DNA of 62,941 nucleotides, the filler included. It is 4 parts of 4 records of this genome, joined end to end, with 100 filler letters (N's around TTAATTAATTAA, not from the genome) between each part and the next. Parts side by side here need not be neighbours in the genome. Positions count along the whole stretch, not along the records: positions 39,662 to 57,807 come from SRR31156797_11951; 3 more parts are not named here. One strand, given 5' to 3'. The position numbers and the translations under genes are program-made. Every line of letters begins with the position of its first letter. Within the stretch, counting starts at the first letter, position 1. The notes below the pieces were generated by a model, which made no database searches, was not told where the DNA came from, and was given only the letters and a program-made list of their open reading frames with translations. This document shows, piece by piece, positions 12,262 to 62,941 of this stretch.

Positions 12262-12270
12262 GACTTTTCC

Positions 12271-13536: not shown

Positions 13537-13585
13537 AGCGAGGAATATTATCCTTTTGGTTAGTTCTTGACTAAATATCAGTATG

Positions 13586-14128
13586 TTACTGATTTCGTTT
13601 TAGGGGGATACGATACAAATATTCGGTGTCGTGTTTACCTTCAAAGTGACGCGTTTCATCGAGAAACGTTGACACTTCACCACGTTCACCATGAGCTTTA
13701 TCTAATTTCTTAAATAGGCTCCATGACCCCTGATTGTCTTTAGTAATGGTTGTTTCCAACACGTTGATGTCTTGAAGATCATCACGTGTGAGTATTTCGT
13801 TCAGCATATGGAAAGCCAGACCCATACCTCGCGCACTTTCATGCACTGCGACTTGCCAAATGAATAACTCACTTGGCTTATCCGGCTTGCGATAGGCTGA
13901 AACGAAGCCCACGATTTCGCCATTGCGCTCTGCGGCCACACAAGTACTTTGGAAATGTGTTGATTGCAGAAAGTTGCAATAAGCGGAGTTCTCATCAAGA
14001 GGTGAGCATTGGGCGATAAGTTCGTGCACTCGCGTTCCATCATTTCTTGTTGGTACTCGAAATACCCACTCATCCTGAGACTTCTGCATAGTTTCTGGGT
14101 ATGCGACCCAAGGTGCTGCTGTAATCAT
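13586..14128 (-). CDS. ectA: Diaminobutyrate acetyltransferase
   Basis: Motifs LDENSAYC, FIWQVAV, ETTIT.DN..S and HF.G.HDTE. Start is uncertain (14128 or 14146). Confidence 0.94.
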   Translation of the reverse strand: MITAAPWVAYPETMQKSQDEWVFRVPTRNDGTRVHELIAQCSPLDENSAYCNFLQSTHFQSTCVAAERNGEIVGFVSAYRKPDKPSELFIWQVAVHESARGMGLAFHMLNEILTRDDLQDINVLETTITKDNQGSWSLFKKLDKAHGERGEVSTFLDETRHFEGKHDTEYLYRIPLKRNQ

Positions 14129-14145
14129 TGCCTGCCACATAATCA

Positions 14146-14159
14146 TTTAGAACTCTAAA
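14146..14159. promoter_or_regulatory. Palindromic operator upstream of ectA (CosR/EctR-type candidate)
   Basis: TTTAGA-AC-TCTAAA palindrome, with a weaker copy TTAGA-AG-TGTAA at 14298-14309. The regulator assignment is inference. Confidence 0.5.
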
Positions 14160-14393
14160 CAAATTCGGGACACAAACTAACAGCTCTAAATATTTTTTCA
14201 ACCTAAAATCTTTAAGTTTTTTACAAAAATAACGCTAACAGTATGTTTTTACTAATTTTATTAATATATTATTAATTCATGACAATTAAATTAATCTTTA
14301 GAAGTGTAAGTATAATTTGATTTATTTGTTCGGAAATAAACTATTGAACTAGTGTTTCAATTATCACTAGCAAATTAGACAACCTTTCGCATA

Positions 14394-14412
14394 TTGCATT
14401 TGCAAAATGCAA
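14394..14412. promoter_or_regulatory. LuxO-binding site(s)
   Basis: TTGCAAAATGCAA at 14400-14412 matches TTGCA-W3-TGCAA and overlaps TTGCATTTGCAA. It lies about 75 bp upstream of the qrr sigma54 promoter. Confidence 0.8.
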
Positions 14413-14483
14413 CTACTCGATGTTTTTTTAAGCAAAAAGTCACAAATACGGCTATTTTTATCACAAATCAGCACGCTAAAAAG

Positions 14484-14500
14484 TTGGCACGTAACATGCT
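14484..14500 (+). promoter_or_regulatory. sigma54 promoter of qrr
   Basis: TTGGCACGTAACATGCT, with -24 GG and -12 GC correctly spaced before the Qrr 5' end. Confidence 0.88.
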
Positions 14501-14510
14501 TAATATTAGT

Positions 14511-14558
14511 TGACCCTTATTAAGCCGAGGGTCACCTAGCCAACTGACGTTGTTAGTG
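14511..14558 (+). ncRNA. qrr: Qrr quorum regulatory sRNA (3' end truncated by contig end)
   Basis: TGACCCTTATTAAGCCGAGGGTCACCTAGCCAACTGACGTTGTTAGTG contains the conserved Qrr core GGGTCACCTAGCCAACTGA. Paralog number not assigned. Confidence 0.93.
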
Positions 14559-47627: not shown

Positions 47628-47650
47628 AAATAGATATAATTTACATTATA
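47628..47650. repeat. Left attachment site: dif-like 23-bp core
   Basis: AAATAGATATAATTTACATTATA, identical to 55677-55699. The minus strand reads AGTATCTATAA-TGTAAA-TTATATCTATT (11-6-11). Confidence 0.85.
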
Positions 47651-47814
47651 GATACTTTTTTGGAAGACTTTTAGAAGGAAAGACGGAATAGAACTACTAT
47701 AAATTGTGAAAAAAGAATACAACTTTAATTATTAAGCTACTTGATGTTAATGGCATTTGTAACAAAAGTAAAATTAAACTTGTAATATAGCTTAAAATTA
47801 AGTATAATAAAAAT

Positions 47815-47901
47815 GAGCAGATTAAAGACGCACTTAGGGCGTAGTTATTCTGTGAAATCATATACCAAATTTAGAGGGAGTGCGCCAACACTCTCTTTTT
47901 T
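47815..47901 (+). ncRNA. Candidate ~87-nt sRNA inside the left end of the element
   Basis: TTGTAA-17-TATAAT promoter (47780-47808), an internal ACGC..GCGT hairpin, and terminator AGAGGGAGTG-CGCCAA-CACTCTCTTTTTT. Confidence 0.6.
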
Positions 47902-48112
47902 GTTCCTCTAAATCTAGTATACTCCTATAAAAGTTTTTTTGCAAGAAAATTTTACCAAATATAATCACATTAATAAATAATAATATTATAATTGTTCTAA
48001 AATTAAAGTAAAATATCCTAAATCATTTAATTTTTCTAATTGTTCTAAAATCATTTGCCAACTATAATAGTATATAGTATAATTAAACAACTAACTTTAA
48101 GGAGCTGATAAT

Positions 48113-48508
48113 ATGGATTTTATCAAATATTTATTTAAAAATTTAGCAAAACTACTATTAGGCTTAATATTACTATTAATAGGTCTTTTTATTATTACAG
48201 AATTTCCATTAATCGCGTTAATCATTGGAATAGTTTTATTTTATTACGATAAATATAAAAGAGAGAAGTTTGGCAAATCCATTTTTAAAACAAAGTTCAT
48301 TTCTAAAAATAATAACGAACTTAATAATATTATTCATGTAGTTCTAAAAAATAAATTTAAAATAACCAAGGAACAATATAGCAAGTATCAAGCTTCGAGT
48401 TTTTACAGTTATTTATACAGTAATAACATAAACAAAAAAGAAATTGATTACAGTTTGGAAAGTTTGATTATCAGTAACTATAAAGCTTACCTACAAAATC
48501 AAAACTAA
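48113..48508 (+). CDS. Accessory membrane protein of the element
   Basis: 131 aa with two N-terminal TM segments, an AAGGAG RBS and its own TTGCCA-17-TATAAT promoter (48055-48083). Confidence 0.75.
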   Translation: MDFIKYLFKNLAKLLLGLILLLIGLFIITEFPLIALIIGIVLFYYDKYKREKFGKSIFKTKFISKNNNELNNIIHVVLKNKFKITKEQYSKYQASSFYSYLYSNNINKKEIDYSLESLIISNYKAYLQNQN

Positions 48509-48518
48509 TATTTTAAAC

Positions 48519-48542
48519 AAAAAAGGAGCCTAGGCTCCTTTT
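48519..48542. terminator. Bidirectional terminator
   Basis: AAAAGGAGCCTAGGCTCCTTTT palindrome between convergent ORFs. Confidence 0.8.
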
Positions 48543-48555
48543 ATTATTTAACCTT

Positions 48556-49029
48556 CTAAGCTTCGGCTGTCGTAGACCCAAGAGAAACACTAGAAGACAT
48601 TTTAACATCTTCGATCGTAGCCTCTCCGATCTTCTTACCTTTTAATGCATTTACAAGAGCATCTACTTTAGTATCATTATCTGATAACGGTAAAGGTAGA
48701 TATAAAGTTTGAAGTTTAACATCCTCTTCTCCGATCTTTGCAGTTCTAGTTAATCCAATTTTTTTAAACTTAGTATTATCAGCAGTTCCTGCAACTGGTT
48801 TAAGAGTTCCTTCTAAATAAGTTTCTAGTCTCATTACTGGTGCAAATCCTGTTACAGTAAATTCTCCTGTTGATTCAATAGCATCAGAAATTACCTTTAC
48901 ATCAGCAGGTTTGACACCGGGATAGAAATATGATTTTGTTTGATCTCCTTGCGCAACCTGAATATTAATCCCCACACATTTAAAATTATCAACAACATAA
49001 TTAGCAATTGTAGCATTTGTAATAGCCAT
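48556..49029 (-). CDS. Hypothetical protein; candidate major virion protein
   Basis: 157 aa, soluble, with a full AGGAGGT RBS, high-expression codon pattern and its own terminator. Function is inference. Confidence 0.55.
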   Translation of the reverse strand: MAITNATIANYVVDNFKCVGINIQVAQGDQTKSYFYPGVKPADVKVISDAIESTGEFTVTGFAPVMRLETYLEGTLKPVAGTADNTKFKKIGLTRTAKIGEEDVKLQTLYLPLPLSDNDTKVDALVNALKGKKIGEATIEDVKMSSSVSLGSTTAEA

Positions 49030-49175
49030 ACTATTACCTCCTATTTTTTATTTATTTATAACAGTCAACTATTAATAATTGACAGGTTATTTACTATTTT
49101 ATTTAATAAAGGGTATTGCCCCCTCCGTCTCCCTAATAATTTATTATTTAATAAAATATCAAGTGGGAGCCTATG

Positions 49176-49290
49176 ACTATTCAAGCATTTTTAAGAAAAC
49201 CACTTAAAAACACTAGAATAGTGAATCGATATCAATACTTTTTCCGGCTGAGTATGGTGCACAGCACCTGTACAGCCTCTAAAAAGTATT
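49176..49290. other. Two long imperfect hairpins (candidate single-strand origin or packaging signal)
   Basis: ACTATTC..TTTTTAAG/CTTAAAAA..GAATAGT (49176-49222) and AATACTTTTT..GGCTG..GGTGC-ACA-GCACC..CAGCC..AAAAAGTATT (49234-49290). Confidence 0.55.
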
Positions 49291-49667
49291 TAATCCATTC
49301 TACAAGTTTTTAACTGAAAGCTATCTCCAAATAGAATTTTTAAATCATTCTGCAATTCAATTTGACTTGATTGATATAATGGATTAAATGTAGAATCCTT
49401 TAGTAATGGTAAAATTTTTCGAATTACGGGAATAGTTTTACCTTGATACTCAAAAGAACCTCCAAATGTTAAATTTTCTTTAGGTAAACTCATTTCTGTA
49501 TCAAAATAAGTCACTTCCGCAAAACTTACTACCAGAACATTACATCGAGTTTCATAAAAATTCTTTACAATAGAACTAGTTAGAACTTTAGAAGTTTTAA
49601 TCTCTTGTGTAAAGCTTCTACCATCAGTAGTACTTTTAAAACTTAATTTATAATAATTTAAAGACAT
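49290..49667 (-). CDS. Hypothetical protein; candidate minor virion protein
   Basis: 125 aa, start overlaps the upstream stop (TAATG); weak resemblance to the 157-aa ORF. Confidence 0.6.
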   Translation of the reverse strand: MSLNYYKLSFKSTTDGRSFTQEIKTSKVLTSSIVKNFYETRCNVLVVSFAEVTYFDTEMSLPKENLTFGGSFEYQGKTIPVIRKILPLLKDSTFNPLYQSSQIELQNDLKILFGDSFQLKTCRMD

Positions 49668-49957
49668 TATTTCACCTGCTTAGCATTAATAAAAGTCCAA
49701 TATAAACGTTCAAGCCAATTACCATTACTCATTGGTTTATTTAATCTAGCATTTTTATTTAATCCAACTAAAGCAGTAGTGCCTAAATAATTTCTAGTCA
49801 TTGCATTACTTAACATATATTTCTTATAATTTAATTCTACTTCTTTTAAAGATAAATCAACCGATCTTTCAATTATTTCCATTGAATCACTAGTAGTATC
49901 AACAATTAAATTAGCACCTACTAAAGTAGCAGCAGCACCAACAACTAAAGCACCCAT
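49667..49957 (-). CDS. Hypothetical protein with hydrophobic N-terminus
   Basis: 96 aa beginning MGALVVGAAATLVGANLIV; translationally coupled on both sides. Confidence 0.65.
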   Translation of the reverse strand: MGALVVGAAATLVGANLIVDTTSDSMEIIERSVDLSLKEVELNYKKYMLSNAMTRNYLGTTALVGLNKNARLNKPMSNGNWLERLYWTFINAKQVK

Positions 49958-50292
49958 TAAGTAAACAACCCCTTTATTGTATTAAACACACCTTTTACAG
50001 AACCCCACATATTCTGAACAAAAACTCTAGGGTCTTTAATAAGGTCCTCTACAGCTTCATCCATTGCCTGCATTACTAAAATAGTCATAAAAGTATCATT
50101 ATTATTTACATAAGATTTTATTAACTTTTCAAGCCAATCAATAGGAACAGTCAAACCTGTTTTCTTTTTTAAAAACTCCTGAAAAGCTTGCATATTGAAA
50201 TCATTTAATCCATCAAGAGCCATTTGAGTCATAAAATCTTGTAAAGTAGGTAAAATAACAAACATAATATATTTCGCCTTTAAATTTGTCAT
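49957..50292 (-). CDS. Hypothetical helical protein
   Basis: 111 aa, ATGA overlap with the 557-aa ORF, amphipathic C-terminus. Confidence 0.65.
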   Translation of the reverse strand: MTNLKAKYIMFVILPTLQDFMTQMALDGLNDFNMQAFQEFLKKKTGLTVPIDWLEKLIKSYVNNNDTFMTILVMQAMDEAVEDLIKDPRVFVQNMWGSVKGVFNTIKGLFT

Positions 50293-51962
50293 GAACCTTC
50301 ACCTTCCTCAGACTCAAAAGAAAAAGAATTAATTAAGTCAAGAATTTCATTTTCTTCCTCTGTTAATTGTGATTTATCTATAGTTCCGTATTTTACTTTC
50401 TTATCACCACTTAATTTCATACTATCAATATCTAAGTCTTTAATAATCTTACTAGTTTCTTTTTTAGACAAGTTACTAGTTGCCGATTTCAAATATTCTT
50501 CATGAGCTTTTAGTTTTCCCTGAGAATTAGCATAAACACCTTTATGCATTTTTATTTCATTTCCAAAACTATCAGTATAATCTTCTGTTAAATCACTATG
50601 TAGCTGTTCATGAGCTTGTTTTTCTCTTCCTTTTCTATCAAGCCCTTGCTCATCTTCCATTGCATCGACTTCCGTTTGATACTTATTTTTTTTATTCCAG
50701 ATGTCTTGATATCCGGTTCCATCTTCTTTATAATCTTTGTTATATTTTGCTTCTACAATACCTGCTATTTTGTCAGTATGAGTTTTGTATAAGTCTTTGA
50801 ATACTCCAAATACATCTTTAATTCCGCTAAATGCTGTTGTTAATCCATCAGCTACCAATTCTATACTAGTTGGTACACCTTCAACTTTTGCGGTTGCAAT
50901 TATATTACCTGAAATACTAGTTTCAATAGTTTTTCCATCTAGTCCAGAACCATCTACAGTAAGAATTTTGTCAAAAGAACCGTTATCAACTAGAAGTTTC
51001 ATTGCTTCCAATTCCTGAATACTAAGTGGTTTAATACCCATTTGAGCATTTGCAAGACTGTCTTTTGCATCTTGAGACAATTCCAGATTTCCTGTAATTG
51101 GTTGTTCTGGTGCAACTACATTCATAGTAATAGGATTCTCTGAAAAATTAGGTTGTTCAACTGTCATTTTAGCGTTACCGCCACTTAACCAATCTTTGTC
51201 AGCCTGTGGCATTTCAAATAGTACTTTTTTATTATCTAAATCTCCAGTATCAAGTTTTAATTCTGGAGGAGTTCCCCAATTTACATTCACTTCACCGCTC
51301 ACTGTTGAACCTCCTGTATCAGATGGTATGTTATAAGGATTGAGTGTTTGCTCTCCTGTGATAGTTCCCTCAGAATTTTCAAACCATGTATTTAAATAAT
51401 AGTAAAATTCATTATTCGAATCTATTCCCCAATCAAGATTATATCTAAATTCAGGATTAGTTGCTTGTTGCATCTCTAAATTAGAAAGGGTTCCTGAACT
51501 ATTAAGCCAAGCCTCGAAGGCTTCTTGTTGTTGTTTTGCTAATTCTAGTTTCTGAGCTTCTATCTCTTCTTGAGATTGTGGAAATTCCAAATCAACATCA
51601 AGTTCACTTCCTAAATTAATTGAAGTTTCTCCAACAGAAATATCAGTATATTGTCTATTAGTACCGATTATTCGAAATGAATTATCATAATGTACTAACT
51701 GATCTGAGTAACTTATTAGACACGAAGTATTAGAAGTATAACCAGAACCTTGTGTAATATAAGCAATTAGTTCCAAATTCCAATCAAAATTATAACGTAA
51801 TTTAATGAGTAAAGTATAATCACCAGAATAACCCTTACTAGTAAAAATATCCTTGAAATACGAAGTTTCACCAAGTAAACTAGAATAAAGTTTTGATCTA
51901 AAAGCACTTTCCCCCATGCCTTCTGCTTCATTCTTTGTAACGCTCATTTTAATAATTGCCAT
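50289..51962 (-). CDS. Large hypothetical protein; candidate adsorption or DNA-pilot protein
   Basis: 557 aa, modular: beta-rich N-terminus, short coiled coil, Pro/Gly linker and charged helical C-terminus. No signal peptide or TM segment. Confidence 0.6.
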   Translation of the reverse strand: MAIIKMSVTKNEAEGMGESAFRSKLYSSLLGETSYFKDIFTSKGYSGDYTLLIKLRYNFDWNLELIAYITQGSGYTSNTSCLISYSDQLVHYDNSFRIIGTNRQYTDISVGETSINLGSELDVDLEFPQSQEEIEAQKLELAKQQQEAFEAWLNSSGTLSNLEMQQATNPEFRYNLDWGIDSNNEFYYYLNTWFENSEGTITGEQTLNPYNIPSDTGGSTVSGEVNVNWGTPPELKLDTGDLDNKKVLFEMPQADKDWLSGGNAKMTVEQPNFSENPITMNVVAPEQPITGNLELSQDAKDSLANAQMGIKPLSIQELEAMKLLVDNGSFDKILTVDGSGLDGKTIETSISGNIIATAKVEGVPTSIELVADGLTTAFSGIKDVFGVFKDLYKTHTDKIAGIVEAKYNKDYKEDGTGYQDIWNKKNKYQTEVDAMEDEQGLDRKGREKQAHEQLHSDLTEDYTDSFGNEIKMHKGVYANSQGKLKAHEEYLKSATSNLSKKETSKIIKDLDIDSMKLSGDKKVKYGTIDKSQLTEEENEILDLINSFSFESEEGEGS

Positions 51963-52096
51963 ACTATCACCCTAAACTTAATATAATTTTCTTGATATTA
52001 ATAAAACATTTATTTAAAAATAATGAATATATTTAAATTTTAATGTAATTATGATATAATAAAAAGATTCAAAATCTAAATAAGAGGTGGTTTTTT

Positions 52097-52267
52097 ATGA
52101 AATGTCAAATTTGTTCTGCACCAAATGCTATAATAACATATGACAGCGAATTTTTATGCGAAAATTGCGCAGAAAAAAGCGGCTATGAAATATGTACAGA
52201 CTCAGGAGAATACTGTAAAGACGTAGGATCATCAGTCTGTTTTAATTGTGATCACTATTCAGGATAA
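52097..52267 (+). CDS. Small Cys-rich (zinc-finger-like) protein, 56 aa
   Basis: Below the track cutoff. MKCQICSAPNAIITYDSEFLCENCAEKSGYEICTDSGEYCKDVGSSVCFNCDHYSG, with AGAGGTGG RBS, TGATATAAT extended -10 and a downstream terminator. Confidence 0.8.
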   Translation: MKCQICSAPNAIITYDSEFLCENCAEKSGYEICTDSGEYCKDVGSSVCFNCDHYSG

Positions 52268-52272
52268 CAACT

Positions 52273-52294
52273 AAGTCCCTTAATTGGGACTTTT
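52273..52294 (+). terminator. Terminator of the Cys-rich ORF
   Basis: AAGTCCC-TTAATT-GGGACTT followed by a T-run. Confidence 0.7.
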
Positions 52295-52503
52295 AAATTT
52301 ACATATTTCTTTAAAGTTTATCTAATCACAACTTATTTAATTTAAACTTATCTCTTTAATATTTCAAATAATTTTCTTTATACTAATCTTTTTTATCTTT
52401 TTTCTTAAATATGTTATATATCAACCTACATAACATAATAATTCTTAATATTATAAGTACATCTCTGATATAATCCAAAAAGTGAATAATACTATGTCTA
52501 ACA

Positions 52504-52650
52504 TTACTCATCATCACCGAATAGTTCATGAACTAAACCCTCAAGTCTTGATGCAACTGTTAAAACTTCTTGAACTGTAATTTCTCCATCTTTATCGATA
52601 TCAAAGATTTTTTTACATACTTCTTTTACTTTATCAGCCTTTAATACCAT
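52504..52650 (-). CDS. 48-aa EF-hand-motif protein overlapping the lysin 3' end
   Basis: Below the track cutoff. MVLKADKVKEVCKKIFDIDKDGEITVQEVLTVASRLEGLVHELFGDDE, with an AGAGGTG RBS. Confidence 0.7.
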   Translation of the reverse strand: MVLKADKVKEVCKKIFDIDKDGEITVQEVLTVASRLEGLVHELFGDDE

Positions 52651-53023
52651 ATTTTTCACCTCTTAGTTCTATATGCGGACTATCTAATAAAGTTTTCCAG
52701 TCACCGCCCCATGATATTTCTATTTTCAATATTTGAGCACATTTTTTTATATGCTCTCCGACAATTTTTAGTGTTTCCGGTGTAACTGGATATGGCAGAA
52801 AGTCCACTGCCAGTGCTGGAACTTCATTATGTAAAGAATAAGGAAACATCCTTTCGCTTTTTCCATTTTTGAATAATTCATTTTGTTGTTCTTCATTACG
52901 ATAGCCAGATACAACAGCGAAATCAATCGGTGTAGTGGCTAAAGCATACGACATCAAAATTTTTAAATCATCATGGCAAGTTTTAAGATATTTTAAACTA
53001 TTCTCTCCAAAATGATACTTCAT
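52634..53023 (-). CDS. M15-family peptidoglycan endopeptidase (endolysin, L-Ala-D-Glu peptidase-like)
   Basis: SGYR...Q..L...GKS, SLH......AVD and WGGDW....D.PHIE zinc motifs. Confidence 0.88.
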   Translation of the reverse strand: MKYHFGENSLKYLKTCHDDLKILMSYALATTPIDFAVVSGYRNEEQQNELFKNGKSERMFPYSLHNEVPALAVDFLPYPVTPETLKIVGEHIKKCAQILKIEISWGGDWKTLLDSPHIELRGEKYGIKG

Positions 53024-53238
53024 TATTTTGCCTCAGTAATATTTTTTAAGTTTCTGTTTTGCCATCCATCAAGTTCAATTTCTAACATATATTCTTTTCC
53101 TTCAACTAGTTTTTCATTTCCAAAATAAGATAACCAATAATTCCCACCCATGAAATCAAATCTAAGTTGTAAATAAGGTTTATCCTTTTTTGTCTTAGCT
53201 TCTTTTATATACCCTAATGTTCCTACTCCTGCAAACAT
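53023..53238 (-). CDS. Small beta-rich protein; candidate ssDNA-binding (OB-fold) protein
   Basis: 71 aa from ATG 53238 after a GGAGGA RBS. KTKKDKPY basic/aromatic hairpin, and positioned downstream of rep as in small ssDNA phages. Confidence 0.6.
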   Translation of the reverse strand: MFAGVGTLGYIKEAKTKKDKPYLQLRFDFMGGNYWLSYFGNEKLVEGKEYMLEIELDGWQNRNLKNITEAK

Positions 53239-53335
53239 AAAAAATCCTCCCATCACGTTTTATTTGATAAGAGGATATCATATATTTTATTAAAGTACCT
53301 AATCCATTTGTCTAGTTTGTCCCTAATGTCCCTAA

Positions 53336-53539
53336 TTAGTTTAATGGACTTGTATTTTTTTGAAAATTATTGCAACTTACACCATAAATTCTTATATTTT
53401 TTCCTACATAAAATCCCTTTAATTCTTCATTATCAACATATCTTCTAATAGTTTTAGAACTCAATTTCCATCTTTTTGCTACCTCATCACAAGTATAAAC
53501 TTCCTTATCTTCAAATAATTTCCCAGTATTTAAATCCAT
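53336..53539 (-). CDS. Excisionase-like HTH DNA-binding protein
   Basis: YTCDEVAKRWKLSSKTIRRYVDNEELKGFYVGKNIRI winged-HTH pattern. Confidence 0.85.
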   Translation of the reverse strand: MDLNTGKLFEDKEVYTCDEVAKRWKLSSKTIRRYVDNEELKGFYVGKNIRIYGVSCNNFQKNTSPLN

Positions 53540-53681
53540 TAAATTTTCCTCCTTATAAATTATGCATATAATTATTAATTGAAATAAAAATTATTGTTAC
53601 ACCGTGTAATTTTAAATATAAAGAATTGTAATATATAAATGTAAGCATAAAATTTCACATCACAAAATTAGTAAATCGCTC

Positions 53682-54788
53682 TTACAAAAACATAAATAGC
53701 TGATTAAACTCAGTAAAATCAAAGTTATAGAGCAGTTGTATATTATTTACCTTCATTAATTCATTTTCATACTCAAATTCATTTACTCTGGTGTAATACA
53801 TTCTGATTAATTCAATAAATTTTTCAAATATATTTAATTGAGCTACTATATAGTAATTTGATTCTTTTTTTAAATCTTTACTACATTGATAAATTTTTGC
53901 ATTCTCTTGCATTATTACTTCAATGGATTCTACAGTATTAACATTCTCAGCATTTGTAATAATATCATCTATTGATTTTGTCATATATATAATAGTTTTT
54001 GTTACATATGCCCCTACATTTTCTACTACATCTGTAACATCATCATTAATAATAAAGTCTCCATCCTGACAATTAATCTTAACTGATTTACCTGTTTTTT
54101 TATTTAAGAATGATTCAATATAAACCCCACCTAGTCCCCAGATATCTAAATATTTATCAAAAGGGATATAAGGACAATTGAATAATAATACATGATAGTG
54201 AATTGCTCCTCTCTTTTGATTTTCCAATACTGCTAAATATTTAATTTTTCCTGTATTACTATTTGTTTCAACATAATAATTCAATCTTTTCATGAATTTT
54301 TTAAACTCATCATTAGCAGTAGCAACACTAGTAATATTCTCTTTAAATGTAAGAGTAAGGAATTTAATAGAATCTTTATGTCCAGGTAAATTAGCATTAA
54401 TTAAATTCTTAATCTTATTTTTTGCTCTCTGCAATGATTTTTTCTTATTGAATAACTTTTTTTCCTGTTCAGACAGTTTCATGTATTTAATTTTTTCTCT
54501 ATAAAAGAATACTTGCTCTTTACTGAAGTCACCATTCTCAAGTTTTATATCAAATAAATCCTCATGAATTGACTCTCCAGTAACCAGATCTACTACAAAA
54601 TAATCCTTTTCATCATAAAATATATCATATCTTTTTTCCTTCAATGCTTTTTTTCTTAATTGGATAGTGTCATACGTTTTAATATCTAAATTATTTCCTG
54701 CTAAAGTTAACTTAACATTGAATTCATTTTGATTTACCTTGTTGATTGCCTGATTTGCTAATAAAAAGTACTTCATATCTAAAGACAT
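53682..54788 (-). CDS. rep: HUH rolling-circle replication initiator
   Basis: Motif I FLTLTF, motif II ENQKRGAIHYHVLL, WGLG, and motif III GAYVTK..YMTK; GGAGGTGG RBS. Confidence 0.9.
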   Translation of the reverse strand: MSLDMKYFLLANQAINKVNQNEFNVKLTLAGNNLDIKTYDTIQLRKKALKEKRYDIFYDEKDYFVVDLVTGESIHEDLFDIKLENGDFSKEQVFFYREKIKYMKLSEQEKKLFNKKKSLQRAKNKIKNLINANLPGHKDSIKFLTLTFKENITSVATANDEFKKFMKRLNYYVETNSNTGKIKYLAVLENQKRGAIHYHVLLFNCPYIPFDKYLDIWGLGGVYIESFLNKKTGKSVKINCQDGDFIINDDVTDVVENVGAYVTKTIIYMTKSIDDIITNAENVNTVESIEVIMQENAKIYQCSKDLKKESNYYIVAQLNIFEKFIELIRMYYTRVNEFEYENELMKVNNIQLLYNFDFTEFNQLFMFL

Positions 54789-54904
54789 TTAAAACCACCT
54801 CCCCGAATTTATTAGCATTGCATAGGTTTCGCCTTAAGTGTGAGTAAGGATAAATAAAGTTCCCTGCGGGGCAAAAACCCCGCTTTTAATTTTGTCATAC
54901 ATAA

Positions 54905-55159
54905 TTATAAAAACTTCAAAATAAACTTCATAAATAGTAAATCAATTAAAGAAATAGTGTCCATTTTTACAGATAGTAATTCACTTCTTACATGTTTTTC
55001 AAATTTACAATAAGTCTGGTAGTATGATAAATATTCTAAATTGCCACTTTCCTTATACTCATCATAACAGCCTAACTTATATTCATTTACATCTATTAAC
55101 AGACATTCTAAATCGTTCTCTCTTTGTTTTCTTAAATTCTCTTTGAAATTTTTAAGCAT
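54905..55159 (-). CDS. Hypothetical protein of the element
   Basis: 84 aa, overlaps the upstream ORF, AGGAAG RBS. Confidence 0.6.
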   Translation of the reverse strand: MLKNFKENLRKQRENDLECLLIDVNEYKLGCYDEYKESGNLEYLSYYQTYCKFEKHVRSELLSVKMDTISLIDLLFMKFILKFL

Positions 55160-55412
55160 TTGGAACTTCCTGCATTAATAAAAACACTAAAGGTAATTTA
55201 GAATCTTTTAATTTTTTCTCAGTATTTTTATCAAAATATAATTTGTCAAATACATGACACAAATCAACATCTTTATTATTAGAAATTGAAAAAATTTCAT
55301 AAACAATACAATCACCTTCTAAATAATTTCTCTCAAAATATGTACCACCTGTTACACCCTCAGTGATAAATCCTTTTTCAAGCATCTGTTCTTTAAACTC
55401 TTCATATAACAT
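55152..55412 (-). CDS. Hypothetical protein of the element
   Basis: 86 aa from ATG 55412 after an AAGGAGTGG RBS. Confidence 0.6.
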   Translation of the reverse strand: MLYEEFKEQMLEKGFITEGVTGGTYFERNYLEGDCIVYEIFSISNNKDVDLCHVFDKLYFDKNTEKKLKDSKLPLVFLLMQEVPNA

Positions 55413-55676
55413 AAATACCACTCCTTTTTAAAATTTTTTTAATTATTTTTTTGGTCAATCATTGTGAATTTTGTATTTTAGAGCAATCAAGCTAAATATT
55501 AACAAAAATCAAATAAAAATTATTTAGACTAATAAATTATTCCGAATAAATATAAAATTTCCGTGTAACTATATTTTTAGAATTTTTATATACTCTTACA
55601 GCCTAATAAAATCAATACTTACTTTTCATTATTTGCGCTAATTTTTATCCCGATTCTTTTTTACTAAAAATTTCCA

Positions 55677-55699
55677 AAATAGATATAATTTACATTATA
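55677..55699. repeat. Right attachment site: dif-like 23-bp core
   Basis: Identical to 47628-47650. The minus strand reads ATTCAATATAA-TGTAAA-TTATATCTATT. Confidence 0.85.
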
Positions 55700-56083
55700 T
55701 TGAATTTATTTTTTCAGAAAAATAGAGCTATTTTTTAATTAAGTAATATTTAATTTTTAACTCTATAATTTAGAGTATAAAGAATTCTATTATATAAATA
55801 CTCAAGTCATAAAGAAGATCTAAAATTTATAATGTACAGTATATTAGTATTAAGATAGTAATATATCAGTCTTTTGAACAGTGAAAGTGAATTCTGAATT
55901 TAAATTTTTAAGATCAAAAATAAATAGATAGATTCAGCAGAAAGAAGAAATTGATATGGGAACTAGAGTAAGAGAGATAATTAATTTAGATAAGTTAGTG
56001 GAATTAGTTCATGCAGAACATTAGCTAATAGAATTATTAATTAGGTAAAAATCCTAAAAATTAAATAAAGAAGCGAAGAGAAA

Positions 56084-57907: not shown

Positions 57908-59104
57908 ATGTTCATTGCTTTTGTTTGGCTTTTTGGATGTTGCGGGCAGGAAGATGGTAAAGGTGCTGCCAAACCCGGGTTCTGACTCTACAGTCATACA
58001 TCCATCATGTCTTTTTATAATCGAATATGAGGTTGCCAGCCCAAGTCCGGCACCTTTGGGCTTAGTAGTAAAGAATGGGTCAAATATCTTTGGCAGGACA
58101 TCTTCAGGAATTCCTGAGCCTTGATCTTTTACAGTTATTTTTACGAACATTCCAGCTTTTAGTTCAATGTTTTCATTGTCAGAATTGTCAACGTTTTCAG
58201 CAAAAACATCTAGCTTTCCGCCTTCCGGCATTGCCTGCTTAGCGTTTATTACAAGATTATCCAGAACCTGGCTTATCTGATTCTTATCGAATTCACATAG
58301 AGACAGATCGTTGGGTATGATAAAGTTGCACGATACTTTTGAGCCACTTAGAGCAAAGTTTACTGTTTTTTTAATAAATGAGTCTAAAGGTTCGATCTTC
58401 TTCACGGGTTCTCCGCCTTTTGCAAAAGTCAGCAGCTGTCCGGTGAGACTGCGCGCTCTTTCAATTGCACAGGATGTTTGCAAAAGATGTTCGGTCAATT
58501 CATTGTTTTCTGATAGCTCTGTTGCAATAATAATATTGCCGAAAATTCCTGATAGTAGGTTGTTGAAATCATGCGCAATTCCACCTGCCATAATTCCTAA
58601 CGATTCAAGTCTCTGATTTGTCTGCAATGCATCTTCAGCGTGCTTACGACGTGTGATATCAATGTTATACTCAGCCACAAGCCATTTTCCATTTGAATCA
58701 AGAAAAGGTATTGTGTGGACCTCAACAATACGGTTATTCTCAGATGGGAGGATCTCTTCATAAACAATAGGTGCTTTTTTCTTTAAAGCTTCAGGGATGC
58801 CGCACGTTTCACAGGGACTATCTTTGTTCATAAAATATTCATAGCATTTTCTTCCTGCCGGGTTTCCATAGATCTTTTGCCAGCTGGGATCAACATATTG
58901 AAGATTAAGTTCGGTGTCTGAAATATTAATATTAGTTTTAGTAGCCTCAAGAACATATTTAAGAAACATTCTTTCATCGTTAAGTTGCTTTGTTTTTTCT
59001 TTAGACCGCTTGTTCAACAATATGTTGTAGGCTAATGTGACTGATAAAAGTATGAGGCTGATGATCAGAGCTGTTATAAGTCCATAGACACTCATTGTTG
59101 ACAC
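57908..59104 (-). CDS. PAS-domain sensor histidine kinase (3' end truncated)
   Basis: N-terminal TM segment, a PAS domain, and motifs GIAHDFNN, NLVINA, DQGSGI and FFTTK..G.GLGL. The stop given in the track comes from the linker. Confidence 0.9.
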
Positions 59105-59177
59105 CCGTAACTTATTTAAAACAGGTGGATTATATCAGTTTTGTAAAAATTTAGCAAAAAGAGAGGGGTTGCCCTTG

Positions 59178-59414
59178 CTACTTCTTGGGGGCCTTTTTTG
59201 CAGAAAAGCATCTTTTACAGAATTTATAGCCTTTCTTTTTTGCTGTTTCTTCGCTTTTTAAAACAACTGTTGCACTTTTGGAGTTGTAATAACGACAGCC
59301 CTTTTTGTGGCAAATCTTGGTTTTAGGGTTACAGTGAAGGTTGCTTGCTGCAACTGATGAAAACATAAAGATGATTGAGATAACCGCAAAAAATCTAATT
59401 AAACTTCTTTTCAT
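59178..59414 (-). CDS. Small secreted protein with an Ada-like metal-binding motif
   Basis: Signal peptide from MKRSLIRFF, then H...C......A...GY..C..C. Confidence 0.65.
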   Translation of the reverse strand: MKRSLIRFFAVISIIFMFSSVAASNLHCNPKTKICHKKGCRYYNSKSATVVLKSEETAKKKGYKFCKRCFSAKKAPKK

Positions 59415-59529
59415 AATGCTCTCCAAATAAAAATTAATAACGGACATTCGAAGTGTAGTGCAAAAAATGCCAGTGTCAAGAAAATCTAATCAGAAATAAA
59501 CTGTATGGATTCTGGTTTAACGCATGTTT

Positions 59530-61437
59530 TTATTGTTGAGGTGTATCCTGAAGAATGATCGAGTAAAAAGCTTCAATAAGATCAGAGTGTTTTTTTGATT
59601 TTGATTTTCGTCTAAATCTTAGTTTCTTATTAGAGGTCCTATACTCTATTATTCCACGATTGTATCCGATAAATTGTGGTTTCTTCTCTTTAGAAAACAA
59701 ACTGTTGCCCCAGTATCCTTCAGGGATATCAATATTTAAAAGATGCAGAATGGTAGGAGCAAGATCAAGTTGTCCTGAGAGAATAGTCGTATCATAATCA
59801 GGAAGATCTGCTGCTGATAGAAATGAAAGAGGAGTTCTTCCAAGATTTGTATTTTTGATTCCCGGGATGCGTTTTACAACATTATTAAAAGGACATGAGT
59901 GATCTGCAGTTGCAATGAAAAGGGTGTCAGGCGTGTAAAGTCCTTTCTCTTTTATCTTCTTCATTGTCAAAGCCATATCATGGTCATGATTGTAGACTGA
60001 TTTCATCCAGCGGAAAGCACCTTTGAAGTTTTTATACTGCTCTGGAGTTTCAGGATATTTTGTAGTCCGGAAACCATATTCTGCACGTCCATGAGGTGGG
60101 TGAGTGTCAATTCCCAGAACAACAATGAAAAGTTTTTTATCCTTATATTCTTCAAGAAGGTCAACAAGTTTTCCAAGCATTATCCTATCGCTAACTCCCC
60201 AGTCATAGATATATTCATCATTTTCAGGAAACTTAGAAAAATATTCTCGTGCAAGAATCTGTTTAAATCCGAATTTCTGAAAAATAATGTTTTCTCCAGC
60301 GTAATATTTTGAAGCACTGCGAAGAAAGATCGTTTCATAACCTTGTTTTTTAAGAATATTCGCTATCGAATTCTGATCGTAACCAGCAAGGATCATATCA
60401 TAATTAGGATGGCTGCTTAAAGTTGATGTAAGTCCTTGAAGTGTTGGCGATGCAGCAGAAAAATAATTTGTCATCATTTTAGCTGACATTTCATCATTTT
60501 CATAAAACCGGGTTTCTGTTTCAAGAGGAATTTTATCGTTGTATTTTTTAAAGAAATCCAGAGAGATCGATTCAGATGCAAACCATACTATTTTATTGAA
60601 GGGTTCAAGCTCCAGGGTTTTATAATTTCTTTTTCCAAGAGGAAGGTCATACTTTTTTATAACCTTCTTAAGAGGTTTTACAGACTTGAGGAGTTTATAT
60701 TTTCCACTGCCTTTAGAAAGAAAGACTTCTTCAACAAAGTTAACCAGGCTGTTTTGAGATGCGTATCTGATCTGCTGGTTTTTACATCTAAGAATATAGT
60801 GAACGTTTTTGTCTTCGTTACCTTTGAACTTTCCGCTATGTTCCTCACTTTTTTTTATAAACATTTCTGTAGGGTTTACTAAGAGTATACATGTTGCAAA
60901 AACGGCATACCTGAAAATATCTGCAAACCTGAAGTCGATGCTTGTCTTTTTAAAAAGCCGGTACGCTCCAAAAGCTGCTCCTAGAAAAGCAAAAAGCATA
61001 AGAACGGAATATATGTTTACAAAACCTGCAATACTGTACCAGGAGATAAGGTTCAGGAAATGGTCTTCAAAAAGAGTGTTGCCGAAAAAGTAGACAGTCA
61101 TATCCTGTCCGATCAGATAAAGATAAATGACCATAAAGGTTACGGCAGGAAAGTTTATTCTGAAAACAAACTTTAAAAACATGATCGAAGAAAGATAAAT
61201 AAGAATATCAACACTGAGTTTCTCAAGCATGCCTGAAAGAAGAATATGGTCGCTAAGAGCAAAATCATGTTTGTACTGAATGATACCGAAATATGATATC
61301 TCAAGGAACATCAGCGGGATGACCAAAAGCCATGGTGAAGCTTTAAAAGGCTTAAAAAGCGATTTAAACGCAACCCGTATCCATGAAAGGGCTTTATTAG
61401 ATACTGTCTTGAATTTCATAACTTTTTCCTCAAACAA
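59530..61437 (-). CDS. LTA synthase / sulfatase-family membrane protein
   Basis: About five N-terminal TM segments; motifs ESIS, candidate catalytic T in SPTL, THPPH, TADH and QLDLAPTIL. Confidence 0.82.
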   Translation of the reverse strand: MFEEKVMKFKTVSNKALSWIRVAFKSLFKPFKASPWLLVIPLMFLEISYFGIIQYKHDFALSDHILLSGMLEKLSVDILIYLSSIMFLKFVFRINFPAVTFMVIYLYLIGQDMTVYFFGNTLFEDHFLNLISWYSIAGFVNIYSVLMLFAFLGAAFGAYRLFKKTSIDFRFADIFRYAVFATCILLVNPTEMFIKKSEEHSGKFKGNEDKNVHYILRCKNQQIRYASQNSLVNFVEEVFLSKGSGKYKLLKSVKPLKKVIKKYDLPLGKRNYKTLELEPFNKIVWFASESISLDFFKKYNDKIPLETETRFYENDEMSAKMMTNYFSAASPTLQGLTSTLSSHPNYDMILAGYDQNSIANILKKQGYETIFLRSASKYYAGENIIFQKFGFKQILAREYFSKFPENDEYIYDWGVSDRIMLGKLVDLLEEYKDKKLFIVVLGIDTHPPHGRAEYGFRTTKYPETPEQYKNFKGAFRWMKSVYNHDHDMALTMKKIKEKGLYTPDTLFIATADHSCPFNNVVKRIPGIKNTNLGRTPLSFLSAADLPDYDTTILSGQLDLAPTILHLLNIDIPEGYWGNSLFSKEKKPQFIGYNRGIIEYRTSNKKLRFRRKSKSKKHSDLIEAFYSIILQDTPQQ

Positions 61438-61575
61438 ATTTCATGCGAAATTAGCAGAGTGTCCTGTTTTTGTCAACTCATCTTGGATTTTAATCGCATT
61501 ACATTGATTCAATTTTCAAAACAAGTAAAATATCGTTGTTAATTTCCCGTTAAGTTAATAGAGGGGGTTCGTAAA

Positions 61576-62941
61576 GTGGCAAGATATCTCATGAAAGATG
61601 CAGTTGTAATGACGTTGCTGAAAGATTCTCTTAAAGAGTATGAAGAGGGATACATCCTTTTTGAAAATGAAGATGAATGGCGCAAACTGTTTTTTAAAGA
61701 TGGAAAGATAACAAGTGCCTCTTCAAGCAGCAAATCTGATTACCTCGGGCAGTATATGATATCTTTTGGTGTCATTAACATAGAGCAATTCGAAGATGCA
61801 TATAAGGAAGGGCATGAAACAAAGGAAAACATGGAAGCGGTAATTCAGTATGCCACTCCAGAAGTTCTGAGAATGTTAATAATTGAGAAGGTCGTAAACT
61901 CAATCTTTGTCGCTACCAGATGGCCAGAAGGTGAATATTCAGTAATTTGCGAGAAACAGGAAAAATACTTTGATGTTGATATAGAGCTCTCATTAAAAGA
62001 TGTAGAGTCAGGATTGAAAGAAAGAATAGTGGAGTTTCAGGGAATACTTGAAACGGTCCCTGAGCTGGGTGGAAGACCGAAAATTGACTACATGGAGTCA
62101 AGAGGGTATGAGATTTCTCACCAGAAAGAGATAATTTTAAACCATCTAGTCGCAGGTAAAACTTTGGTGGAGATCTTGGAGATCCTGCCTGCTCATAATT
62201 ACCTCCTTTTCAAGTGTATATACAAACTTATTCGAATGGGGATACTTTTAAAAGGACCAGGGGTTCCACTTTCAAAAGAGGACGTTCTTGAGTTGGTTAA
62301 TAGATCTGAAAAAAGTAAGAGACCTGCTCCTCAGGTGACCGACTTTTCTCTTGATGCCTCAACGGTTGAAAAAGCATATGTGGAAATGGGAGAGAACAAA
62401 TATAGGACAGCTATTGCAAGGTACCAGAAGCTGACAGAAGTTTATCCTGATAATCCTCTGTACGCACATATGTGTGATCAGGCCAAGTCTTGTTTTATTG
62501 TTCTTTTTTATAATAATAGACTTTCTCCGTTTTCTGTTGTGGAACTTGTTGGAGATATCAAGGATGTTCCTGATGTGTCTCAACTTGATACCGAACTGTT
62601 CTATGAACTTCAGAAAAATGAAGATAAAAAGTCGTCCGTTAGACGTCTTATAAAGTCTATGGATGACAGAAATGAGATCGATATTCTGACATCTCTCAGC
62701 AAATTAATGGAATCCAGTTTTATAAAGGAATCAGAGCCTGACACCCTTATAAACGCAATAAAACTTGGAAGAAACGATATTTATGAGGATCTTTTTAATA
62801 AAAAAGAGAAAAACACGCTTTTTGATGTAAATATTACAGATAATCTTACACCCTTAATGCTTTCCTCTGTTACGGGAAACTATCCTGAAGAAATTGCTGA
62901 GGAATTTGGTGTCCAGAAATTTGAAAAGGGTGCTGAACCAG
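61576..62941 (+). CDS. DUF4388 (PatA-N)-like protein with TPR- and ankyrin-like segments (3' end truncated)
   Basis: Missing from the track because there is no stop in the window. Starts at GTG 61576 after GAGGGG. Contains LFFKDGKITSASS...YLGQYMI...WPEGEY and TPLML near the edge. Confidence 0.7.
   Translation, partial: MARYLMKDAVVMTLLKDSLKEYEEGYILFENEDEWRKLFFKDGKITSASSSSKSDYLGQYMISFGVINIEQFEDAYKEGHETKENMEAVIQYATPEVLRMLIIEKVVNSIFVATRWPEGEYSVICEKQEKYFDVDIELSLKDVESGLKERIVEFQGILETVPELGGRPKIDYMESRGYEISHQKEIILNHLVAGKTLVEILEILPAHNYLLFKCIYKLIRMGILLKGPGVPLSKEDVLELVNRSEKSKRPAPQVTDFSLDASTVEKAYVEMGENKYRTAIARYQKLTEVYPDNPLYAHMCDQAKSCFIVLFYNNRLSPFSVVELVGDIKDVPDVSQLDTELFYELQKNEDKKSSVRRLIKSMDDRNEIDILTSLSKLMESSFIKESEPDTLINAIKLGRNDIYEDLFNKKEKNTLFDVNITDNLTPLMLSSVTGNYPEEIAEEFGVQKFEKGAEP

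What the first reader, a model, noticed from the sequence alone, without database searches (positions are those of the whole stretch)
47628..55699. Intact-looking 8-kb rolling-circle prophage with an endolysin but no integrase, Zot ATPase or recognisable capsid
Seen: an 8,049-bp unit between 23-bp direct repeats. The minus strand carries two small ORFs, an HUH Rep, an HTH protein, an SSB-like protein, an M15 endopeptidase, an EF-hand peptide, and then ORFs of 557, 111, 96, 125 and 157 aa with no obvious frameshifts. I find no Walker A motif, no short TM coat proteins and no tyrosine or serine recombinase. Known: inoviruses need a pI/Zot ATPase and TM coat proteins and do not lyse cells, while microviruses have a large jelly-roll capsid protein. 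Inference: this is a temperate, lysis-competent ssDNA-type virus (or a satellite) with an unclassified virion module, in a low-GC anaerobe.
Basis: partly seen in the sequence, partly recalled or inferred. Interest (0 to 1): 0.92.

Follow-up and report, generated by a model that had tools for sequence, protein, structure and literature searches.

The report
Xer-integrated rolling-circle element, likely novel phage
An 8-kb self-replicating DNA element sits in a Fusobacteriaceae chromosome between two copies of the cell's own chromosome-resolution site, carries a cell-wall-lysing enzyme and a set of genes unlike any known virus coat, and belongs to a small family of such elements that may be an undescribed kind of bacterial virus.

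Summary
A 23-nt perfect direct repeat lies 8,049 bp apart, and between the copies are intact minus-strand ORFs: an HUH Rep, an HTH protein, an M15 endolysin, and ORFs of 557, 111, 96, 125 and 157 aa. There is no integrase and no Zot ATPase.

Three things are new.

1. **Family.** The element belongs to a conserved family of 8–10 kb elements. Relatives occur in four other Fusobacteriota genomes (one assembled as an 8,832-bp circle) and in metagenome fragments. They keep the same late-gene order but swap Rep, lysis enzyme and integration module.

2. **Integration site.** The repeat is a dif-type Xer site. Its core ATATAA-N6-TTATAT matches the site found downstream of a single-copy Xer-like recombinase gene in 26 of 30 Fusobacteriota loci. 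A transposase-less relative is inserted at such a terminus dif, and a sister genome supplies the empty site. The window element is therefore best read as a TLCφ/GGI-type IMEX.

3. **Late proteins.** None has a known family. The 157-aa protein folds confidently into a tandem β-β-α-β domain with no significant structural match. The 557-aa protein could not be modelled.

A virion is not shown. A temperate ssDNA phage of a new family is the leading reading; a satellite or a non-viral island remain possible.

The parts
47629..47656 (+). attL: dif-type 28-mer AATAGATATAA-TTTACA-TTATAGATACT. The left arm and spacer are shared with attR; the right arm comes from the element and is imperfect.
   Evidence: core compared with Xer-linked sites
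47873..47898 (+). terminator-like hairpin in the 460-nt non-coding left end of the element
48113..48508 (+). 131-aa membrane protein on the opposite strand, function unknown. Relatives also carry a small opposite-strand TM ORF in or after the late module.
48521..48542 (.). bidirectional terminator-like hairpin between the converging ends of p131 and p157; end of the late operon
48556..49029 (-). p157: tandem beta-beta-alpha-beta protein, candidate structural protein. It founds a small family with 9 metagenomic homologs and corresponds to the tandem paralogs in relatives.
49290..49667 (-). p125: conserved late-module protein of no known family, not detectably related to p157
49667..49957 (-). 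p96: late-module protein with a hydrophobic N-terminus; homologs in metagenome fragments L008 and L009
49957..50292 (-). p111: late-module protein, homologous to the N-terminal part of the ~200-aa proteins of relatives
50289..51962 (-). p557: largest late protein, acidic, with a predicted long helix and a conserved C-terminal region. It is distantly related to the 629-718-aa proteins of relatives. Fold not determined.
52097..52267 (+). 56-aa Cys-rich ORF on the opposite strand, converging on the early operon; no family hit
52273..52292 (.). bidirectional terminator-like hairpin separating the early and late operons
52383..52529 (-). 48-aa ORF with one TM-like segment and a basic C-terminus. 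It is the positional counterpart of the 65-75-aa TM ORFs that precede the large protein in relatives. It may be a holin or a membrane/coat protein (inference).
52504..52659 (-). 51-aa acidic ORF with an EF-hand-like loop (seen in the translation only)
52634..53023 (-). M15 peptidoglycan peptidase (endolysin)
   Evidence: homolog in L016
53023..53256 (-). 77-aa ORF after the HTH gene; the 'SSB-like' label is unsupported
53336..53539 (-). 67-aa HTH_17 / excisionase-like DNA-binding protein. It is a candidate regulator or recombination-directionality/Xer-activating factor (inference).
53682..54788 (-). HUH rolling-circle Rep (G2P/VP4-like), with motifs FLTLTF, HYHVLL and YVTKTIIY
54866..54883 (.). 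perfect GC-rich hairpin GCGGGG-N6-CCCCGC just upstream of rep; candidate origin element (inference)
54905..55421 (-). two small acidic ORFs (84 and 89 aa) with no family hit
55635..55705 (+). attR. 55635-55676 is about 75% alike to the host flank left of attL. 55678-55705 is the dif-type 28-mer AATAGATATAA-TTTACA-TTATATTGAAT, which holds the only exact ATATAA-N6-TTATAT in the window.

Best explanation
The region is an intact, integrated copy of an ~8.05-kb rolling-circle replicon. It belongs to a conserved, apparently undescribed family of 8-10 kb elements of Fusobacteriota.

It has no recombinase of its own. It entered the chromosome by host Xer recombination between a dif-type site on its circular double-stranded form and a chromosomal dif-type site. 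That leaves two hybrid sites sharing the Xer-gene-proximal arm and the spacer. This is the TLCφ/GGI style of IMEX.

After excision, the HUH Rep would nick at an origin (possibly the GC hairpin upstream of rep) and drive rolling-circle replication. An early operon carries rep, the HTH gene, the 77-aa ORF, the M15 endolysin and small ORFs. A late operon carries p557, p111, p96, p125 and p157. The late operon is most likely a virion module of unknown type, assembled without a packaging ATPase, with release by lysis through the M15 peptidase.

Shown: the anatomy, the family, the dif-type nature of the site, and Xer-site insertion of a relative. Inferred: Xer dependence of this copy, ssDNA packaging, particle formation, and the roles of the late proteins.
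For: Anatomy and intactness.

Family. The late-gene order is conserved in 3 metagenome fragments. It is also conserved in elements of 4 of 190 Fusobacteriota genomes: G104 (3 copies), G123 (2 copies), G128 and G130. The G130 element is an 8,973-nt contig with a 141-nt terminal overlap, i.e. an 8,832-bp circle. Variable modules surround the constant late block: two Rep types; M15, GH24 lysozyme or DUF1353; Mutator transposase or none. This is the pattern expected of a virus-like modular genome.

Xer/dif.
- A Xer-like tyrosine recombinase is present in 116 of 190 genomes, nearly always as one copy.
- In 27 of 30 fetched loci a 28-bp site lies about 100-310 nt downstream of it, and 26 of those carry an exact ATATAA-N6-TTATAT.
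- The window core ATATAA-TTTACA-TTATAT differs from the commonest version at 1 of 18 positions. It is the only exact match in 62.9 kb (expected 0.05).
- The transposase-less G123 element lies between two such sites right after the xer gene, with the same layout of shared arm plus spacer. It sits at a GC-skew sign change of a 2.33-Mb contig. G128 has the identical unoccupied site.
- Literature passages: TLCφ and GGI attP sites share the XerC arm and centre and diverge in the XerD arm (PMC5357621). Integrase-less microvirus proviruses are flanked by dif-like repeats (PMC3091885).

Late proteins unknown.
Against: - No particle, ssDNA form, circular junction or empty site was seen for this copy. 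Only source-run contigs were available, and they show the integrated form.
- No member was found in IMG/VR or in deposited phages.
- The window's site is not next to a xer gene, and no xer homolog lies in the window.
- Genes left of attL are mostly on the same strand as those to the right. The contig therefore does not show a terminus-like convergence at the site.
- The host's closest held relatives (G001-G004) show no xer-adjacent site, and their contigs end beside xer.
- The circular relative L020 has no convincing dif-type site.
- p157 at 17 kDa is small for an icosahedral shell holding 8 kb, and its fold matches no known capsid.
- The fold of p557 is unknown.
Confidence: 0.6

Rival explanations
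1. The element is a satellite. It replicates, integrates through Xer and lyses, but relies on a helper phage for its capsid. The late module would serve hijacking or adsorption rather than building a shell.
For: No recognisable capsid, portal or packaging protein in any family member. TLCφ, the closest attP type, is itself a satellite (PMC5357621 passages).
Against: The late block of five to six genes is the most conserved part of the family, while Rep, lysis and integration modules are swapped. That is more typical of a virion module. No helper was identified. The elements carry their own lysis gene.
Confidence: 0.15
2. The element is a non-viral integrative rolling-circle plasmid or island (a plain IMEX). 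Its late genes would encode surface, secreted or competition factors, and the peptidase would be a wall-remodelling or killing enzyme.
For: No virome or phage-database hit. p157 has a simple alpha/beta fold with no capsid likeness. The circular contig is equally consistent with a plasmid.
Against: The late proteins lack signal-peptide-like or TM features apart from the p96 N-terminus. The interchange of three unrelated lysis-type enzymes at different positions (M15, GH24, DUF1353) fits phage lysis cassettes. The Rep's nearest relatives are microvirus and plectrovirus Reps.
Confidence: 0.15
3. The element is a divergent filamentous (inovirus- or plectrovirus-like) phage. The 48-aa TM ORF would be the coat, p557 the adsorption protein and p111 a pVI analogue, with assembly proceeding without a recognisable Zot ATPase.
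For: G2P-type Rep, with a plectrovirus Rep hit of 34-37% over 74-117 aa. The order small TM ORF, then large protein, then ~110-aa protein recalls coat-pIII-pVI. Xer integration is classic for inoviruses. Relatives use a transposase, as I recall for plectroviruses.
Against: No P-loop ATPase in any of three elements scanned. p557 has no signal sequence or C-terminal anchor. An endolysin argues for lysis rather than extrusion. No protein other than Rep matches SVGII3.
Confidence: 0.08
4. Integration was not by Xer. The 23-bp core would be the att site of a tyrosine or serine integrase supplied in trans, or integration was Rep-mediated. The dif likeness would then be convergent or coincidental.
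For: The site is not beside xer here. There is no terminus signature in the contig. The 42-nt extra homology on one side is not a feature of the minimal dif.
Against: The exact core occurs once in 62.9 kb against 0.05 expected. It matches 17 of 18 positions of the Xer-linked sites. It has the same hybrid-site layout as the G123 element, whose empty site is known.
Confidence: 0.2

Closest known systems
IMEX of the TLCφ / gonococcal genetic island type (integrative mobile elements exploiting Xer)
   Same: No own recombinase. It is flanked by two dif-type sites that share one arm and the spacer and differ in the other arm (PMC5357621 passages). A relative sits at a terminus dif.
   Different: The host phylum is Fusobacteriota. 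There the partner appears to be a single Xer-like recombinase, usually encoded beside its site, rather than XerC/XerD. The element carries a lysis enzyme and an unknown late module. Xer dependence is untested.
Temperate Microviridae of Bacteroidetes (BMV proviruses; Krupovic & Forterre 2011, PMC3091885)
   Same: A small rolling-circle Rep element with a VP4-like Rep and no integrase, flanked by imperfect dif-like direct repeats (passages).
   Different: No F/VP1 capsid, VP2 or VP3 homolog by Pfam, PHROGs or tblastn. The genome is 8.05 kb, larger than the 6.3 kb quoted for BMV1 in that paper. It has its own M15 endolysin.
Plectroviridae (Spiroplasma phage SVGII3, NC_073761.1)
   Same: Genome size of about 8 kb. 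Rep similarity of 34-37% over 74-117 aa. Small TM ORFs are present. Transposase-bearing, multi-copy relatives exist, which resembles plectrovirus behaviour as I recall it.
   Different: No other protein is similar. The host has a cell wall. A lysis enzyme is present.
XerS/difSL and XerH/difH single-recombinase systems
   Same: In relatives a single Xer-like gene is genetically linked to its site (abstracts and passages of PMC5357621 and PMC2731167).
   Different: The Fusobacteriota protein scores best with the XerA/XerD/XerC models, below their equivalog cut-offs. The site is 28 bp with near-palindromic arms. In the window's contig no xer gene is adjacent.

Membership tests
IMEX (Xer-exploiting integrative element) | no self-encoded integrase or transposase | tested here: met
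   13 element ORFs of 56 aa or more were scanned in Pfam (10 of them also in PHROGs) with no recombinase hit. The three ORFs under 60 aa were not scanned.
IMEX (Xer-exploiting integrative element) | flanked by dif-type sites that share one arm and the spacer | tested here: met
   attL and attR 28-mers. The core matches 17 of 18 positions of the Xer-linked sites present in 26-27 of 30 loci. The exact core is unique in the window.
IMEX (Xer-exploiting integrative element) | target is the host chromosome's dif at the terminus | tested here: inconclusive
   No host genome is held. The contig shows no convergence at the site. The feature is met for relative G123, with G128 as the empty site.
IMEX (Xer-exploiting integrative element) | integration and excision depend on the host Xer | not testable with these tools
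   needs genetics or in vitro recombination
HUH rolling-circle Rep (REP_ORF2-G2P, PF23343) | family profile plus motifs I, II (HUH) and III (Tyr) | tested here: met
   PF23343 at 4.1e-17, 62.7 bits against a cut-off of 27.8. Motifs FLTLTF, HYHVLL and YVTKTIIY are present.
Inoviridae / Tubulavirales | pI/Zot morphogenesis ATPase | tested here: not met
   No family hit. The only Walker-A pattern is a non-conserved GSGLDGKT inside p557.
Inoviridae / Tubulavirales | small hydrophobic major coat protein | tested here: inconclusive
   A 48-aa ORF with one TM-like segment and a basic tail exists. It has no family hit or demonstrated homology.
Microviridae | F/VP1 jelly-roll major capsid protein | tested here: not met
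   No Pfam or PHROG hit for any late ORF. tblastn of p557 against 50,697 phage records gave no match. p157 is alpha/beta, not a jelly roll. The fold of p557 itself is unknown.
Plectroviridae | shared structural gene set with SpV1/SVGII3-type phages | tested here: not met
   Only Rep matches SVGII3. All other comparisons gave E of 0.065 or more.
Double-jelly-roll phages with Rep (Corticoviridae, Finnlakeviridae) | DJR capsid protein (plus packaging ATPase in corticoviruses) | tested here: inconclusive
   No sequence hit and no P-loop. The p157 fold search lists no capsid. p557 could not be modelled.
Peptidase M15 endolysin | family profile | tested here: met
   PF13539 at 1.5e-5, 25.9 bits against a cut-off of 25. 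phrog_465 'endolysin' at 3.3e-34.

The most novel reading that the evidence does not exclude
These elements are a new family of temperate, lytic ssDNA viruses of Fusobacteriota. The particle would be built from proteins of previously unseen type, with the tandem beta-beta-alpha-beta p157 family as the shell or sheath subunit. It would be assembled without any packaging or extrusion ATPase. Different lineages would lysogenise either by hijacking a single-recombinase Xer/dif system or by a captured Mutator transposase.
Probability: 0.35. Interest if true: 0.88.

Novelty: new variant of a known kind. Interest (0 to 1): 0.72.

Why it matters
Few families of ssDNA phages are known, and none is described for Fusobacteriota in the searches I ran.

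If particles are made, the late module would add a new virion architecture to the small set known for prokaryotic viruses. It would also show ATPase-free assembly outside the Microviridae.

Independently of that, the comparison exposes what looks like a phylum-wide single Xer-like recombinase with an adjacent 28-bp dif, together with mobile elements that exploit it. This extends the IMEX strategy to a new phylum and gives a simple sequence handle (ATATAA-N6-TTATAT) for finding such elements.

Fusobacteriota include medically relevant species. Small elements that replicate, integrate site-specifically and lyse cells could also become genetic tools.

Tried and rejected
- **p557 and p157 against sequence databases.** tblastn against phages found no match for p557. 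IMG/VR scans with p557, Rep and the p157 alignment found no relatives. The word-seeded search of 5.8 billion clusters found none for p557, p157 or the four-sequence large-protein alignment.
- **ESM Atlas.** No usable hit for p157 or p557.
- **p157 fold searches.** Foldseek PDB and BFVD gave best E about 0.06 and TM about 0.2. VIA-wide gave best Z 4.6 over 51 residues of one half-domain. Low-Z rows to BMC shell proteins and ribosomal L6/uL6 were considered and set aside as a generic alpha/beta arrangement.
- **Large proteins P0010-P0012.** These are unrelated repeat proteins, so I dropped them from the alignment.
- **AF2 of p557 with 7 sequences.** Mean pLDDT 35, not searched further.
- **Complex prediction of three p157 copies.** No verdict.
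- **Sequencing runs.** Only the probable source run holds the element, as contigs in the integrated form, with no joints. That says nothing about a circle.
- **Empty site in relatives via MarC.** Seven loci were found, with no synteny and no site.
- **Firmicutes-type dif control motif (recalled).** 55 of 190 genomes matched, with reversed-control hits at a similar level, so it is uninformative.
- **Full 28-mer with up to 3 mismatches.** Only 2 of 190 genomes matched. The outer arms vary between genera, so the inner core was used instead.
- **Rfam.** Nothing above noise. No tRNA in the window.
- **Profile comparisons.** p125 against the p157 family gave 1% probability. p96 against the C-half of the ~200-aa fusion gave 0.3%. 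p77 against the relatives' post-Rep ORF gave 0.1%.
- **L020 circle.** No convincing dif-type site.
- **Earlier scan notes.** None.

Full report
**1. Observation**

The window is four contigs joined by N44-TTAATTAATTAA-N44 linkers. The element lies in the 18-kb contig at 39662-57807, between ordinary chromosomal genes: pyruvate carboxylase and a MarC-family protein on the left, and a PHP phosphoesterase and an ABC ATPase on the right.

A 23-nt perfect direct repeat lies at 47628-47650 and 55677-55699, spaced 8,049 bp. A further ~42 nt at about 75% identity continues on the left side only.

Family searches confirm three of them:
- an HUH Rep (PF23343, 4.1e-17; motifs FLTLTF, HYHVLL, YVTKTIIY);
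- an HTH_17 excisionase-like protein;
- an M15 endolysin (phrog_465, 3.3e-34).

No recombinase, Zot-type ATPase or capsid family is hit.
- The 'SSB-like' label has no support.
- One Walker-A-like string exists inside p557, but it is not conserved.
- Small TM-like ORFs do exist.

Terminator-like hairpins are enriched (7 found against 2.0 ± 1.3 expected). Two bidirectional ones lie exactly where converging genes meet, which splits the minus strand into an early operon (rep to the 48-aa ORF) and a late operon (p557 to p157).

**2. Host**

MarC's nearest relatives are MAGs labelled Fusobacteriaceae, at 58-60% identity. No whole genome is held for the window.

**3. A family of elements**

The 157-aa protein has nine small homologs among 1.84 billion representatives, at 35-44% identity. 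Three further hits were unrelated repeat proteins, which I dropped.

An alignment of the family retrieved three short metagenome contigs. They conserve the order p111-p96-p125-p157.

Profile searches of 190 Fusobacteriota genomes found the p157 family in 3 genomes. The large protein was found in 4 genomes with strong scores; two further marginal hits with internal stops were not counted. The loci are complete elements of the same plan:

| Genome | Locus | Content |
|---|---|---|
| G128 | L016 | Rep, small ORF, TM ORF, 690-aa protein, 197, 131, 133, 140 aa, M15, Mutator transposase |
| G104 | L017-L019 | three ~9.6-kb copies, 93-96% identical over most of their length (a ~1.5-kb left segment is 99.7-99.9% identical in two of the three comparisons); a different 445-aa replication protein, a GH24 lysozyme and a Mutator transposase |
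| G123 | L031, L032 | two copies whose structural blocks are 90% identical but whose Rep types differ |
| G130 | L020 | an 8,973-nt contig with a 141-nt terminal overlap, i.e. an 8,832-bp circle |

The window's p557 is closest to G123's 629-aa protein, at about 26% identity over about 400 aa. The p157 family is homologous to both tandem paralogs of the relatives (hhalign 94.8% and 91.5%). p125 forms its own family.

So the late block is the constant part, and replication, lysis and integration modules are exchanged around it.

**4. What the repeat is**

The core reads as an 11-6-11 site: AATAGATATAA-TTTACA-TTAT.... A search with the full 28-mer found an almost identical, single-copy site in 2 of 190 genomes, against 0 for the reversed control.

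In G076 that site has three properties:
- It lies between converging genes.
- It lies where strong positive GC skew collapses.
- It is 187 nt downstream of a Xer-like tyrosine recombinase. The best NCBIfam models are XerA, XerD and XerC, all below their equivalog cut-offs.

That recombinase is present in 116 of 190 genomes, almost always as one copy. In 27 of 30 fetched loci a 28-bp site follows it, and 26 of those have an exact ATATAA-N6-TTATAT. Of the three loci without a site, one had only 84 nt of downstream sequence available.

The window's core differs from the commonest version at one spacer position. It is the only exact occurrence in the 62.9-kb window, with 0.05 expected and 5 of 100 shuffles reaching one.

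The G123 copy without a transposase (L032) lies directly after the xer gene. It sits between ACTAAATATAA-TAACTG-TTcataaaagt and ACTAAATATAA-TAACTG-TTATATTTAGT. The local GC skew flips from +0.32 to -0.28 there, and the 2.33-Mb contig changes skew sign in that region. G128 has the same xer gene followed by the identical, unoccupied site with homologous flanks.

That relative is therefore an insertion at a Xer-linked terminus dif. It has the same 'shared proximal arm and spacer, divergent distal arm' layout as the window's attL and attR. Passages of PMC5357621 describe this layout for TLCφ and the gonococcal island. PMC3091885 describes integrase-less microvirus proviruses between dif-like repeats.

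Weak points for the window's own copy:
- No xer gene is adjacent to the site or elsewhere in the window.
- The contig does not show convergence at the site.
- The nearest held relatives (G001-G004) show no xer-adjacent site, and their contigs end beside xer.
- The circular L020 has no convincing site.
- A control with a recalled Firmicutes-type dif motif was at noise level.
- Kono et al. (PMC3025954, passages) list no Fusobacteria.

**5. The late module**

None of p557, p111, p96, p125 and p157, nor their counterparts in relatives, hits Pfam or PHROGs meaningfully. Profiles of the p157 and large-protein families find nothing in PDB sequences.

AF2 on the ten-sequence p157 alignment gives mean pLDDT 81 and two tandem beta-beta-alpha-beta units. 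Foldseek against PDB and BFVD gives nothing below E 0.06. An exhaustive aligner against 48,161 chains gives a best Z of 4.6, on one half-domain only. So p157 is not a jelly-roll, HK97 or inovirus-type coat by any test available here.

The p557 model was unusable (pLDDT 35), so its fold is open.

No P-loop ATPase exists in three elements scanned. Only Rep resembles a plectrovirus protein.

**6. Mechanism proposed**

- Integration and excision use the host Xer at the two hybrid sites. The HTH_17 protein may influence this (inferred).
- The HUH Rep drives rolling-circle replication. The GC hairpin at 54866-54883 is a candidate origin (inferred).
- Late-operon products form or complete a particle without an ATPase, as microviruses do (inferred).
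- Release is by the M15 peptidase. The 48-aa TM ORF may act as holin or membrane component (inferred).

**7. Novelty**

Four full-text searches found no description of this element family, of an IMEX in Fusobacteriota, or of a Fusobacteriota Xer/dif system. The searches combined Fusobacterium/Fusobacteri with dif, Xer, IMEX, ssDNA, prophage, rolling circle, Mutator and related terms. I saw only listings, abstracts and the passages named above. Supplements were closed.

The kind of element is known: a small rolling-circle element that lysogenises through Xer. The gene content, the host phylum and the putative virion are not.

**8. Verdict**

The feature is real, intact-looking and mobile in its relatives. 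It is best read as a Xer-integrated member of a new family of probable ssDNA phages.
- Confidence in the whole statement: 0.6.
- Confidence that it is a genuine member of a conserved mobile-element family: about 0.9.
- Confidence in Xer-type integration: about 0.75.
- Confidence that it makes its own virions: about 0.5.

Noticed in passing
window 1-14558 versus 14659-57807 and 57908-62941: The window is four contigs joined by N/stop-codon linkers. Their GC content is very different: about 0.45 in the first, about 0.28 in the middle two, and about 0.36 in the last. The bin may mix organisms, or these may be very different genomic regions.
   Followed up: partly
L066-L095 (30 Fusobacteriota loci); G076:C1:286447-287638: A single-copy Xer-like recombinase gene occurs in 116 of 190 genomes. 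In 27 of 30 fetched loci a 28-bp near-palindromic site lies about 100-310 nt downstream. This looks like a phylum-wide single-recombinase Xer/dif system, which my literature searches did not find described.
   Followed up: partly
table of places (e.g. G081:C196, G080:C50, G018:C223, G030:C219, G129:C184): Many draft contigs begin or end within a few hundred bases of the xer gene. This would be expected if repeated or variable elements sit at the adjacent dif.
   Followed up: no
L017 ~3189-12828; L018 and L019 equivalents: Three ~9.6-kb copies in one genome share identical termini (CCAAAGTATGG... to ...GACTTGG). Each is inserted inside a different host inverted repeat resembling a terminator stem. 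These copies encode a Mutator-family transposase.
   Followed up: partly
L031 versus L032 (G123): Two elements in one genome have 90%-identical structural blocks. They carry unrelated replication proteins and different integration modes (Mutator transposase versus Xer site), so module exchange is recent.
   Followed up: partly
L016 11672-11900; L032 ~6900-7100: A relatively GC-rich, apparently structured non-coding stretch follows the last late or lysis gene in relatives. It could be a single-strand origin or a small RNA. It was not analysed.
   Followed up: no
L077 (G080:C50), about 100 nt downstream of xer: A site whose xer-proximal arm AATAGATATAA is identical to the window's shared arm, but with a different spacer and distal arm. 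It lies next to a contig end in a genome with two xer matches. It may be a hybrid site of another integrated element.
   Followed up: no
L020 6279-7652: A 1.37-kb stretch of the circular relative has no ORF of 45 aa or more.
   Followed up: no
L033 1459-1488 and 1546-1577: Two ~30-nt direct repeats bracket the dif-type site of G076. Their meaning is unknown.
   Followed up: no
window 53571-53640 versus 55730-55799: A 70-nt stretch between the HTH gene and rep is 73% alike to host sequence just outside attR. It may be chance in AT-rich DNA or a shared promoter-like region.
   Followed up: no
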